Below are positions 31,568 through 33,311 of a DNA stretch of 33,311 nucleotides, in pieces. The translations under genes were made by a program, and so were the position numbers. The stretch is from a virus (lineage: Duplodnaviria; Heunggongvirae; Uroviricota; Caudoviricetes): IMG/VR virus record IMGVR_UViG_2778261498_000008, positions 1 through 33,311 of that record. One strand, written 5' to 3'. Numbering within the stretch: the stretch's first letter is position 1; each line of letters starts with the position of its first letter. The notes below the pieces were generated by a model, which saw only the letters and a program-made list of their open reading frames with translations, was not told the origin of the DNA and did no database searches.

Positions 31568-32677
31568 ATGACCGACACCACCATGCAATTGCTCAGTCAA
31601 GGCACAGACCCTGTAAAAATGCCGGATTTTGATATTCTCGCGGAGGGTAAAACGCTGTCAGGCGTGGCAGAGCGCCTGATGAGCCTGTCGCTGACCGACA
31701 ACCGGGGATTTGAGGCAGACCAGCTCACCATCACGCTGGATGATGCGGATGGTCAGTTGCAGCTACCGCCACGGGGCGCGCGCCTGAAGGTTCTCATTGG
31801 CTGGAAAGGCGAACCGCTGACAGAAAAAGGCACTTACATTGTTGATGAAATCGCTCACGAAGGACCGCCGGACAGGCTGACTGTTTCGGCCAGAAGCGCA
31901 GATTTTCGGGATGAATTTAACGTTAAACGTGAGGTGTCCTGGCATGATGTGACCGTTGAGCGTGTGGTATCCGCCATCGCTCATCGGTATGGTCTGAAAC
32001 CGCAAATCAGCGAAATGCTGATGGATATCGAAATCGACCACGCCGACCAGACCGAAGAAAGCGACATGTCCTTCCTTACGCGCATGGCGGAAATGCTGGG
32101 CGCAATCACCACGGTAAAAAGCGGCAATCTGTTATTCATCATGCCAGGTGGTGGCGTGAACGCACAGGGCCAGCCGTTGCCCTCGTTCGCCATTACACGC
32201 AGCAGCGGCGATCGCCATCAGTTCCGTATTGCTGACCGCGAGGCTTATACGGGGGTACGCGCCTACTGGCTTGATCTTAATTACGGGAAAAAGAAAAAAG
32301 TCAGCGTAAAACGCCGTAAACCGCCAAAACCCAAAAAGGAGAAAAGCAGCAGCCGTGAAGGTGATTATATGGAAGGCGCGGAAGGCAATGTGTTTGTGTT
32401 ACGCAAGACTTATCAGAACGAGCAGGCAGCAAGACGCGCAGCGGCGGCAAAGTGGCAGCAACTACAACGCGGAGCCGCAGCGTTCTCCATCACGCTGGCG
32501 CGTGGACGTGCAGAACTCTACCCCGAAATGCATGGCACGGTAACAGGATTTAAAAGCGAGATTGATAATCAGGACTGGATTATTGCAAAAGCGGAGCACT
32601 CTATTGATAACAGTGGCTTTACCACGCAGCTTGAGCTTGAAGCAAAAATCCCGGAATGGATAGCAGAAACAGAGTGA
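31568..32677 (+). CDS. D: Tail protein D (P2 gpD family)
   Basis: 369-aa product from ATG 31568 with GGGAGGGAG SD, directly upstream of ogr. Confidence 0.8.
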   Translation: MTDTTMQLLSQGTDPVKMPDFDILAEGKTLSGVAERLMSLSLTDNRGFEADQLTITLDDADGQLQLPPRGARLKVLIGWKGEPLTEKGTYIVDEIAHEGPPDRLTVSARSADFRDEFNVKREVSWHDVTVERVVSAIAHRYGLKPQISEMLMDIEIDHADQTEESDMSFLTRMAEMLGAITTVKSGNLLFIMPGGGVNAQGQPLPSFAITRSSGDRHQFRIADREAYTGVRAYWLDLNYGKKKKVSVKRRKPPKPKKEKSSSREGDYMEGAEGNVFVLRKTYQNEQAARRAAAAKWQQLQRGAAAFSITLARGRAELYPEMHGTVTGFKSEIDNQDWIIAKAEHSIDNSGFTTQLELEAKIPEWIAETE

Positions 32678-32719: not shown

Positions 32720-32980
32720 ATGTTCCGTTGTCCGCTTTGTGGCGCATCTGCCCGTATCCGCACCAGTCGTCCGGAAAATGATTCAAACACCGTGCGGCAA
32801 AAGTATTACCAGTGTAACAATCTGGAATGCGGCGTATGCTTCTCAACACTGGAAGCTTTCCATAAATTCACATCGAAACATGCCTCCGGCGTTCACTCTT
32901 CAGAAGGTATCCCGTGGCATGAGCTGCCAGCTTCACACAGGGGAAACAATCAGATGAGCTTGCCTTTATCTCAGAATTAA
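32720..32980 (+). CDS. ogr: Late-gene transcriptional activator, Ogr/Delta zinc-finger family
   Basis: MFRCPLCG...YYQCNNLECG has the CxxC...CxxxxC arrangement and matches P2 Ogr as recalled (MFHCPLC...YHQCQNVNC). Carries a C-terminal extension to 86 aa. Confidence 0.8.
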   Translation: MFRCPLCGASARIRTSRPENDSNTVRQKYYQCNNLECGVCFSTLEAFHKFTSKHASGVHSSEGIPWHELPASHRGNNQMSLPLSQN

Positions 32981-33040
32981 CAGGCAGAATTGCCGGAGTA
33001 ACAAAAAAGCGATAGATTACGCGCGGGTGCCTTTCGGCTG

Positions 33041-33304
33041 ATGGTCGGAGGGAATACCCGAAGGCCGGATGTGGAAAGGCCCCGGAAAACATTTCTGTTT
33101 AACCGAGGCCCTAACCGCATTACCTTGACAAGTGAAAGGTTAGCGCCTCTCCGGAAAAGGAGCAAGTGCTATGTCGCAAAAATCGCTTACGGCCATCACG
33201 TTCTGCGTGACGGCAATCCTCATCATCTGGATGCTGCATGGTTCGCTGTGCGAAATACGGATGAGCTTCTGGGGAGCGGAGTTTGCGGCGTTCTTACAGT
33301 GTAA
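33041..33304 (+). CDS. Candidate mok-like overlapping reading frame
   Basis: ORF that starts upstream of the hok-like gene and overlaps it in another frame, ending 7 nt before the hok stop, as in hok/mok/sok loci. The true start is unknown. Confidence 0.35.
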   Translation: MVGGNTRRPDVERPRKTFLFNRGPNRITLTSERLAPLRKRSKCYVAKIAYGHHVLRDGNPHHLDAAWFAVRNTDELLGSGVCGVLTV

Positions 33305-33311
33305 GCAGTAA
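33171..33311 (+). CDS. hok: Hok/Gef-family type I toxin (46 aa)
   Basis: MSQKSLTAITFCVTAILIIWMLHGSLCEIRMSFWGAEFAAFLQCKQ has a single TM helix followed by the SLCEIR and E(F/V)AAF signature of Hok/Gef peptides. The stop codon is the last three bases of the window. Confidence 0.8.
   Translation: MSQKSLTAITFCVTAILIIWMLHGSLCEIRMSFWGAEFAAFLQCKQ

What the first reader, a model, noticed from the sequence alone, without database searches (positions are those of the whole stretch)
32981..33311. hok/mok-like type I toxin locus immediately right of ogr
A 46-aa Hok/Gef-family peptide gene with an overlapping mok-like frame ends exactly at the window edge, about 190 bp after ogr. In P2 the attachment site lies between ogr and int, so this locus is either phage cargo at the att-proximal end or host DNA marking the prophage boundary. 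An antisense Sok-like RNA is expected on the minus strand around 33040-33170 but cannot be placed by eye.
Basis: partly seen in the sequence, partly recalled or inferred. Interest (0 to 1): 0.5.

Follow-up and report, generated by a model that had tools for sequence, protein, structure and literature searches.

The report
Phage-carried hok/sok toxin-antitoxin module
The last 330 bases of the window hold a real but already catalogued hok/sok-type toxin-antitoxin module that P88-like (P2-family) phages carry as cargo just after ogr; the window cuts off its 3' end, and the true prophage end lies about 1.7 kb further right.

Summary
ORF 33171-33311 encodes a 46-aa Hok/Gef peptide (Pfam PF01848, 29.9 bits, cut-off 22). 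The leader 33025-33184 matches Rfam RF01794 (E 4e-9, below gathering). An overlapping frame is open from 33041 or 33125 to 33304.

The open question is settled: this is phage cargo, not host DNA. The same locus follows ogr in isolated P88-like phages (P88, P88_4B11, Chuche, PhiR44_2), with more cargo and then att/int downstream. In the nearest lysogens the order is ogr-hok-TM2-Com-methyltransferase-attR-raiA. The 27-bp att core lies 1675 nt past the hok stop, and the empty pheL-raiA site has no hok.

The window edge is a prophage-caller artefact: 46 of 80 IMG/VR contigs end at the same base. It removes the 3' UTR, which in identical relatives carries the fbi element (GGCACCC, pairing with the 5' GGGUGCC) and a terminator.

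A Sok gene is predicted on the minus strand at about 33130-33072, with promoter TTGCTC-17-TAACCT, by positional homology to R1.

Hok is under purifying selection. The mok-like frame is not conserved in close relatives.

The module is ordinary and already annotated in RefSeq and phage records. Interest is low.

The parts
32990..33018 (+). Candidate hok promoter: -35 TTGCCG (32990-32995), 17-nt spacer, -10 TAGATT (33013-33018)
   Evidence: Read from the sequence. The -10 keeps the same distance from GGGTGCC in every context, and reads TAGAAT in the contexts without ogr. It is weak (8 of 12 matches), and the promoter scan reported nothing here. Inferred.
33025..33184 (+). hok mRNA 5' leader (match to Rfam RF01794 'sok', which is modelled on the hok strand)
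   Evidence: 46.2 bits, E 3.9e-9, gathering score 59. As a control, an R1-type locus matches on the hok strand from mRNA +1 to the hok AUG at 87.2 bits.
33025..33039 (+). tac element (5' GGGUGCCUUUCGGCU). It can pair either with fbi, which lies 71-85 nt beyond the window end, or with ucb.
   Evidence: In the MFE fold of the full-length RNA from an identical relative, nt 1-15 pair with nt 337-352; z = -6.9. This helix is 91% paired across 30 variants. R1 has GGCGCUU/AAGCGCC at the same places.
33071..33083 (+). ucb / anti-SD box (GUGGAAAGGCCCC), the alternative partner of tac and of the GAGG box
   Evidence: The RNAalifold consensus pairs columns 4-17 with columns 50-62. In the single-sequence MFE fold this box pairs with the GAGG region.
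33105..33108 (+). Conserved GAGG, the positional equivalent of the R1 mok Shine-Dalgarno
   Evidence: Nearly invariant in 30 variants. In R1 the mok SD is GAGG at 104-107 (PMC9841398).
33125..33304 (+). mok-like overlapping frame: TTG start, 59 codons (the frame is already open from ATG 33041)
   Evidence: It has the same codon phase as R1 mok relative to the conserved AGG-NTA-GC element. TTG is shared with a distant Citrobacter variant, whose 15-codon ORF ends in UGAUG at the hok start. It is not conserved: 14 of 30 variants have no canonical start, and there is no protein-level selection on it (14 synonymous against 115 non-synonymous differences).
33137..33165 (-). Predicted Sok promoter: -35 TTGCTC (33165-33160), 17-nt spacer, -10 TAACCT (33142-33137)
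   Evidence: It has the same position and spacing as R1's TTGCGC-17-TATCCT in a verified R1-type sequence. AGGTTA is invariant and GAGCAA nearly invariant in 30 variants. The generic promoter scan did not report it. Inferred.
33072..33130 (-). Predicted Sok antisense RNA (about 59 nt). Its 5' tail is complementary to the TTG/mok-start region, followed by a hairpin and then UUUCC.
   Evidence: Fold -31.4 kcal/mol, z = -4.4. The ends are inferred from the promoter and by analogy with R1. There are no expression data.
33159..33162 (+). hok Shine-Dalgarno GGAG, 8 nt before the ATG. It sits in a CUCC/GGAG hairpin.
   Evidence: Sequence; MFE fold; helix 8 is 95.5% paired.
33171..33311 (+). hok CDS, 46 aa, Hok/Gef family
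   Evidence: Pfam PF01848 at 29.9 bits, above the cut-off of 22. Among close variants the variable sites fall 1, 1 and 14 at codon positions 1, 2 and 3.

Best explanation
This is a hok/sok-type type I toxin-antitoxin module carried as accessory cargo by a P88-like (Xuanwuvirus, P2-family) prophage. It is the first gene after ogr in the variable ogr-to-attR interval.

Proposed mechanism, by homology with plasmid R1:
1. A weak promoter (about 32990-33018) makes a stable mRNA starting near 33025.
2. In the full-length mRNA the 5' tac box (GGGUGCC...) pairs with the 3' fbi box (GGCACCC, 79-85 nt beyond the window end). This keeps the RNA closed and untranslatable.
3. Slow 3' trimming lets tac pair with ucb instead, which opens the leader.
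4. A short, unstable antisense Sok RNA, made from the minus strand (about 33130 to 33072), then binds the leader around the mok-start region and blocks translation or triggers decay.
5. If Sok transcription stops, the 46-aa Hok peptide is made, inserts in the inner membrane and kills or lyses the cell. Sok could stop on loss of the prophage, on shut-off by an infecting phage, or during induction.

What is shown here: family membership of the peptide, the leader match, tac/fbi and tac/ucb complementarity, purifying selection on Hok, and location inside phage genomes.

What is inferred: promoters, Sok ends, 3' processing, toxicity and biological role. The role could be prophage addiction, exclusion of other phages, or help with lysis, as reported for hokW-sokW.
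For: Peptide: Pfam HOK_GEF is above its cut-off. The nearest K-12 paralogue is HokA at 43% identity.

Leader: RF01794 at E 3.9e-9, with a control on an R1-type locus.

RNA architecture: in the full-length fold nt 1-15 pair with nt 337-352, z = -6.9. Across 30 unique variants 94.4% of cells are paired, and 19 pairs have changes on both sides against 6.5 +/- 1.9 in shuffles. The three natural fbi variants all keep G.U pairs. Between R1 and this locus tac and fbi change together.

Selection: variable sites fall 1/1/14 by codon position.

Cargo status: the locus lies inside the genomes of phages P88_4B11, PhiR44_2 and Chuche, between ogr and int. ogr ends exactly 45 nt upstream of the mRNA start in 71 of 80 IMG/VR loci. 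The att core and host homology begin 1675 nt right of the hok stop, and the empty site lacks hok. Contigs carrying the window's exact gpD show D-ogr-hok-TM2-Com-MTase-raiA.

Literature: hok is enriched in prophages, and 42 of 45 tested homologues were toxic (bioRxiv 10.1101/2025.08.07.668861). hokW-sokW in a Stx phage is a working type I TA system (PMC8621323).
Against: The Rfam score is below gathering (46.2 against 59).

The generic promoter scan found neither the hok nor the Sok promoter. Both match the sigma-70 consensus poorly.

The mok frame is required for Hok translation in R1 (PMC9841398). Here it has only a TTG start, 16 nt after the GAGG box, and it is absent in 14 of 30 natural variants.

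The fbi box and terminator of this particular copy cannot be seen. They were read from relatives that are 100% identical over 32981-33311.

There are no expression or toxicity data for this 46-aa subfamily.
Confidence: 0.85

Rival explanations
1. The locus is host chromosomal DNA (a resident hok locus) lying just outside attR, so it marks the prophage boundary.
For: In P2 itself att follows ogr closely (established knowledge). The window ends right at the hok stop.
Against: The locus is present inside isolated phage genomes between ogr and int. Host homology and the 27-bp att core start 1675 nt further right. The empty pheL-raiA site has one core copy and no hok. The same module travels with ogr at a fixed 45-nt distance in 71 of 80 viral contigs. 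The window edge is a shared caller artefact: 46 of 80 contigs end at the same base.
Confidence: 0.02
2. The locus is a decaying, non-functional hok relic, like several K-12 chromosomal hok loci. The toxin is never expressed because the mok coupling is defective.
For: The mok-like frame has only a TTG start with poor SD spacing, and many close variants have lost it. The Rfam score is below gathering. K-12 hokA is annotated with a mokA pseudogene next to IS150.
Against: There is strong purifying selection on the Hok peptide: 1/1/14 variable sites by codon position, with the 46-codon length kept in 28 of 30 variants. The tac, ucb, fbi, SD and Sok promoter boxes are conserved, and there are compensatory changes in several helices. 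Most tested Hok homologues are toxic.
Confidence: 0.1
3. The module works, but not as an addiction module. Its selected role would be phage-phage conflict (abortive infection or exclusion) or timing of lysis on induction. It may be fed by late read-through transcription from D-ogr, which is co-directional with no terminator in between.
For: It sits at the head of a variable cargo island that also holds an orphan methyltransferase with Com, or a RES-domain toxin in relatives. hokW-sokW raises the phage yield of Sp5 about two-fold, and R1 hok/sok reduces T4 plating (PMC8621323). No terminator was found between ogr and hok.
Against: There is no direct evidence here. PADLOC has no model that matches the peptide. 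The Hok catalogue found no enrichment of hok next to defence systems. This explanation concerns the role, not the mechanism, and it is compatible with the best explanation.
Confidence: 0.4

Closest known systems
hok/mok/sok of plasmid R1 (type I toxin-antitoxin paradigm; Pfam PF01848, Rfam RF01794)
   Same: A small membrane toxin with the SLCEIR and E-x-AAF motifs. An mRNA about 350-400 nt long whose 5' tac box can pair with a 3' fbi box or with an internal ucb box. A GAGG box. A hok SD held in a hairpin. An antisense promoter with the same position and the same 17-nt spacer. A terminator hairpin after fbi.
   Different: The peptide is 46 aa, not 52. The tac/fbi sequences differ (GGGUGCC/GGCACCC against GGCGCUU/AAGCGCC). 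The mok start is TTG at best and is not conserved. The element is carried by phages, not plasmids: 34 of 72,556 plasmid records have this type, against at least 5000 with R1 Hok. The leader scores below Rfam's gathering score.
E. coli K-12 HokA (NCBIfam NF007290)
   Same: It is the closest named paralogue: 43% identity, with a shared ...AAFL-x-CK C-terminus, and it is the best NCBIfam hit.
   Different: The score is 34 bits against an equivalog cut-off of 89, so this is not HokA. K-12 hokA is chromosomal and is disrupted by IS150.
hokW-sokW of Stx2 phage Sp5/933W (PMC8621323)
   Same: A phage-borne hok/sok module in a temperate coliphage. Phage records label the present gene 'MokW-like host killing'.
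   Different: HokW is 51 aa and begins MKQQKAM, so it is HokC/D-like. The relative of the present locus in Stx phages is a separate 46-aa gene after lom, about 82% identical in DNA.
P2 ogr-att-int region
   Same: The gene order ...D-ogr-[att]-int, with a tyrosine integrase.
   Different: In P88-like phages a variable cargo island of 1.5-3.5 kb, headed by hok/sok, is inserted between ogr and att. The statement about P2 itself rests on established knowledge and was not tested here.

Membership tests
Hok/Gef toxin family (Pfam PF01848) | Peptide of about 50 aa that scores above the family's gathering threshold | tested here: met
   29.9 bits against a cut-off of 22, covering profile positions 5-42 of 42.
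Hok/Gef toxin family (Pfam PF01848) | Membrane toxicity on expression | not testable with these tools
   Indirect only: 42 of 45 diverse Hok homologues were toxic in the bioRxiv catalogue. It is not known whether this cluster was among them.
hok/sok type I TA locus (R1 paradigm) | hok mRNA leader recognisable by the family covariance model (RF01794) | tested here: inconclusive
   E 3.9e-9 but 46.2 bits, below the gathering score of 59. An R1-type control scored 87.2 bits.
hok/sok type I TA locus (R1 paradigm) | Long-range 5' tac / 3' fbi pairing, plus the alternative tac/ucb pairing | tested here: met
   Both pairings are found. Helix 1 is 91% paired in 30 variants, with wobble-only changes. 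tac and fbi change together relative to R1. Caveat: the fbi box lies outside the window and was read from relatives identical over 32981-33311.
hok/sok type I TA locus (R1 paradigm) | Overlapping mok leader ORF whose translation is coupled to hok | tested here: inconclusive
   The frame is open in the window (TTG 33125 or ATG 33041). But 14 of 30 unique variants have no ATG, GTG or TTG start upstream of hok in either overlapping frame. The spacing from GAGG to TTG is 16 nt.
hok/sok type I TA locus (R1 paradigm) | Cis-encoded antisense Sok RNA with its own promoter, complementary to the leader | tested here: inconclusive
   TTGCTC-17-TAACCT sits at the R1-equivalent position and is conserved. 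The predicted RNA folds well. The promoter scan was negative, and there are no transcript data.
HokA equivalog (NCBIfam NF007290) | Score above the equivalog cut-off | tested here: not met
   34 bits against a cut-off of 89.
HokW/SokW of Sp5 | 51-aa HokW-type peptide (MKQQKAM...) | tested here: not met
   The length and both termini differ. HokW's length comes from the paper, and its termini from the cloning primers. 'MokW-like' is only an annotation label.
Phage cargo (inside the att-bounded prophage) | Lies between attL and attR, is present in phage genome records, and is absent from the empty site | tested here: met
   This was tested on the nearest relatives (92-96.5% identical prophages, with 100% identity over ogr-hok), because the window's own flanks are not available.

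The most novel reading that the evidence does not exclude
In this phage-borne 46-aa Hok subfamily the mok leader ORF may be dispensable. About half of the natural variants lack any canonical start for it, yet Hok stays under strong purifying selection.

Control would then rest on something other than mok coupling. One candidate is the covarying long-range helix between the Sok-target region and the 3' UTR. Another is a very short upstream ORF with a near-cognate start.

The hypervariable patch at the Sok 5'-tail target (mRNA +89 to +112) could be diversifying so that co-resident prophages keep TA modules that do not cross-react.
Probability: 0.2. Interest if true: 0.4.

Novelty: already known. 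Interest (0 to 1): 0.15.

Why it matters
It matters little beyond correct annotation. The peptide is already a RefSeq 'Hok/Gef family protein', the locus is annotated in P88-like phage records, and prophage-borne hok genes have been catalogued at scale.

Three practical points follow:
- Prophage calls of this phage group are systematically cut at the hok stop. They lose the RNA's regulatory 3' end and 1.5-3.5 kb of cargo. Studies of phage cargo, and any att-site inference from such contigs, will therefore be biased.
- P88-like phages have a variable cargo island between ogr and attR that begins with this module.
- The uneven conservation of mok offers a natural test of how far the R1 model generalises.

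Tried and rejected
- The generic sigma-70 and terminator scan over the locus found no promoter. It found only a minus-strand terminator-like hairpin, which is the conserved 3' UTR hairpin of the hok mRNA. It was therefore no help in placing Sok.
It worked once an alignment was given.
- Three papers retrieved for 'hok + P2-like' mentioned the two terms in unrelated places.
- PADLOC has no model for the peptide.
- The window's exact source genome was not found among complete E. coli genomes; the best match is 96.5% identical over the last 10 kb. Downstream sequence was therefore inferred from relatives.
- ATG 33041 was considered as the mok start and rejected. It lies inside the tac region, 64 nt upstream of the conserved GAGG box, and is missing in divergent variants.
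- The 'host hok locus' reading was considered and rejected (see rival explanations).

Full report
WHAT IS IN THE SEQUENCE

The window is a P2-family prophage cut from gene end to gene end. A 340-codon minus-strand ORF, the integrase, has its stop at base 1, and the last ORF ends at base 33311.

At the right end, gpD (31568-32677) is followed by ogr (32720-32980; Pfam Ogr_Delta, 52 bits). After a 190-nt gap comes a 46-codon ORF, 33171-33311: MSQKSLTAITFCVTAILIIWMLHGSLCEIRMSFWGAEFAAFLQCKQ. This peptide scores 29.9 bits on Pfam HOK_GEF (cut-off 22). It is identical to RefSeq WP_000078916.1, 'Hok/Gef family protein'.

The stretch 33025-33184 on the same strand matches Rfam RF01794 ('sok') with E 3.9e-9, but at 46.2 bits it is below the gathering score of 59. 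A control with an R1-type plasmid locus shows that this Rfam model is laid on the hok strand. It runs from mRNA +1 to the hok AUG and scores 87.2 bits there. The window match therefore marks the hok mRNA leader and puts the 5' end near 33025.

A second frame is open from 33041 (ATG) or 33125 (TTG) to 33304.

CARGO OR HOST

The same 331 nt occur at 93-98% identity in isolated or induced P88-like phages (genus Xuanwuvirus, Peduoviridae): P88, P88_4B11, 500465-2, Chuche, PhiR44_2, 520873 and Citrobacter phage Shae_phiSM. They also occur at about 82% identity in roughly 170 Stx-phage records.

In three phage records that were inspected, the order is D-ogr-hok-variable genes. In P88_4B11 and Chuche the integrase follows those genes; PhiR44_2's linear record ends before it.

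Of 5426 complete E. coli genomes, 1750 have a match. Three of the 100%-identical hits were inspected, plus the genome closest to the window over its last 10 kb (MIN10, 96.5%). All four read ogr-hok-TM2 protein-Com-DNA methyltransferase, and then the host genes raiA and bamD.

In strain ET358 the other prophage end is pheL|int. A 27-bp direct repeat, ACAAAAAACGCGCCCGAAGG(T/C)GCGTTG, flanks the element. It contains a short inverted repeat and lies just 3' of raiA, so it looks like raiA's terminator. Homology to all other E. coli genomes starts exactly at the first base of the right-hand copy, 1675 nt after the hok stop. A K-12-derived empty site has one copy of the repeat between pheL and raiA and no hok. 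The window contains no copy of the repeat.

Contigs that encode the window's exact gpD show the same right arm in five of six places.

WHY THE WINDOW STOPS AT THE HOK STOP CODON

80 IMG/VR contigs encoding the identical peptide were examined. 46 end at exactly this base, while the rest continue for 0.3-4 kb. This is how a prophage caller trims to the last called gene. It is not biology.

The trimming has a cost. Homology among all copies of the module continues for 85 nt past the stop and ends exactly after GGCACCC. Beyond that point the terminators and cargo differ.

ANATOMY AND MECHANISM

The full-length RNA was taken from a relative identical over 32981-33311 (L004 6045-6440). It folds to -174.9 kcal/mol (z = -6.9), with nt 1-15 (GGGUGCCUUUCGGCU) paired to nt 337-352 (GGUCGAAGUGGCACCC). 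This is the tac/fbi fold-back of the R1 paradigm. A hairpin with a short U-run follows, as in R1.

The consensus fold of 30 unique variants instead pairs the 5' end with GUGGAAAGGCCCC (33071-33083). This is the tac/ucb alternative. The single-sequence fold pairs that box with the conserved GAGG region at 33105-33108.

Counting pairs for the full-length structure on the 30 variants gives 94.4% paired cells. 19 pairs have changes on both sides, against 6.5 +/- 1.9 in shuffles (0 of 500 shuffles reach the observed value) and 5-10 when the partners are slid. The usual caveat applies: the structure was derived from one of these sequences. The three natural fbi variants (GGCAUCC, GGUACCC, GGCACUC) all keep G.U pairs with the invariant 5' end. 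Between R1 and this locus, tac and fbi change together: GGCGCUU/AAGCGCC against GGGUGCC/GGCACCC.

The hok SD (GGAG, 33159-33162) sits in a conserved CUCC/GGAG hairpin.

A candidate hok promoter is TTGCCG-17-TAGATT at 32990-33018. Its -10 keeps its distance from the mRNA start in every genomic context.

SOK

On the minus strand, TTGCTC (33165-33160), a 17-nt spacer and TAACCT (33142-33137) occupy the same place and spacing as R1's TTGCGC-17-TATCCT. The comparison was made against an R1-type sequence fetched for the purpose. AGGTTA is invariant and GAGCAA nearly invariant in the 30 variants.

Transcription would start near 33130. It would give an RNA whose 5' tail is complementary to the TTG/mok-start region, followed by a strong hairpin and then UUUCC. 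The stretch 33131-33060 folds at -31.4 kcal/mol, z = -4.4.

It remains a prediction. The generic promoter scan reports nothing here, and these boxes also belong to the sense RNA's structure, so their conservation is not independent evidence.

MOK

In the window the overlapping frame is open. TTG 33125 has the same codon phase as R1 mok relative to the shared AGG-NTA-GC element. It also lies just inside the predicted Sok 5' end, as the R1 mok AUG does.

A distant Citrobacter braakii variant shares this TTG. Its 15-codon ORF ends in UGAUG on the hok start, a classic coupling arrangement.

Against this, 14 of the 30 unique variants have no ATG, GTG or TTG upstream of hok in either overlapping frame. 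They include phages P88_4B11 and Chuche, a Stx phage and a Salmonella copy. The GAGG-to-TTG spacing is 16 nt. Substitutions are 14 synonymous to 115 non-synonymous in the mok frame, against 76 to 46 in the hok frame.

Hok itself is clearly under purifying selection. Among 17 close unique coding sequences the variable sites fall 1, 1 and 14 at codon positions 1, 2 and 3.

'Overlapping mok-like frame' is therefore true of this copy, but a functional mok is not established for the subfamily. The authors of the recent Hok catalogue also note that Mok prediction is ambiguous.

COMPARISON WITH WHAT IS KNOWN

The module works like R1 hok/sok and belongs to the Hok/Gef family. It is not HokA, which is the nearest K-12 paralogue at 43% identity; the NCBIfam score is 34 bits against a cut-off of 89. 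It is also not HokW, which is 51 aa and begins MKQQKAM.

This 46-aa type is overwhelmingly phage-borne. 34 of 72,556 plasmid records carry it, against at least 5000 for R1 Hok.

Prophage-borne hok genes are already catalogued: 6290 in IMG/VR, about four times the number expected by chance in prophages. Their role is stated to be unstudied. hokW-sokW of Sp5 is a working type I system that increases phage release. That paper also cites earlier work showing that R1 hok/sok reduces T4 plating.

Which role applies here cannot be decided from sequence. The candidates are addiction of the prophage, exclusion of other phages, and help with lysis. D-ogr-hok are co-directional with no terminator between them, so late read-through transcription is possible.

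VERDICT

This is a real but ordinary feature that is already annotated. The only mildly unexpected points are the systematic truncation of such prophage calls at the hok stop and the patchy conservation of mok.

Noticed in passing
window 1 and 33311; IMG/VR loci L015-L094: Both window ends coincide with gene ends: the integrase stop at base 1 and the hok stop at 33311. 46 of 80 IMG/VR contigs encoding the same Hok end at exactly the hok stop. Prophage calls of this phage group are therefore systematically trimmed, losing both att sites, the hok 3' UTR and 1.5-3.5 kb of cargo.
   Followed up: yes
beyond window end; L004 6332-8005, L001 3832-7154, L003 3832-5311: The ogr-to-attR interval of P88-like phages is a variable cargo island that always begins with hok/sok. 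In the window's nearest relatives it holds a TM2-domain protein, Com and an N6/N4 DNA methyltransferase. In P88_4B11 it holds a RES-domain toxin with a small upstream ORF and a VasI-like protein. In Chuche it holds Com and a methyltransferase only.
   Followed up: partly
L007 3821-3847, L004 8006-8032, L098 1201-1227: The att core of this prophage group is a 27-bp sequence, ACAAAAAACGCGCCCGAAGG(T/C)GCGTTG, in the pheL-raiA intergenic region. It contains a short inverted repeat just 3' of raiA, so it looks like the raiA terminator.
   Followed up: yes
window 33113-33136 (mRNA +89 to +112); alignment A2 columns 97-125: The most variable patch of the leader is the predicted target of the Sok 5' tail, around the mok start. 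The flanking boxes are nearly invariant. In the full-length fold this patch pairs with the 3' UTR (helix 7), and 5 of its 12 pairs show changes on both sides.
   Followed up: partly
L104 7560-7745 (AP027408.1, second P88-like prophage in one genome): One E. coli genome carries two P88-like prophages with the identical gpD. The second sits at another att site and has a diverged hok allele (MTQIPLKTLLLCITAVAIIWILHTSPCELRFRFAGTEIAAFLLCNK) behind an almost identical tac region. This may reflect allele diversification between co-resident modules.
   Followed up: no
L016, L056, L060, L083, L084, L087, L094, L011: The same hok module (86-95% identical) also sits in a different phage context without ogr or gpD. 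There it lies downstream of an HP1-ORF34-type baseplate gene and a 565-aa ORF. In Escherichia albertii it is followed directly by serS. Homology starts at the -10 box, so the module moves as a unit of about 375 bp running from the promoter -10 to fbi.
   Followed up: partly
L095 2521-2875 (Shigella phage 75/02 Stx): Stx phages carry a 46-aa hok of this subfamily just after lom. It is labelled 'MokW-like', but it is distinct from the experimentally studied 51-aa hokW.
   Followed up: partly
L008, L009, L012 (GTDB genome contigs): Near-identical copies of this enterobacterial phage locus occur in assemblies labelled Planococcaceae MAG, Vagococcus sp. and Xanthomonas pisi. Contamination or mis-binning is the likely cause.
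   Followed up: no
L093 2218-3807: One IMG/VR contig has ogr split by an insertion of about 1.3 kb, just upstream of an intact hok module.
   Followed up: no
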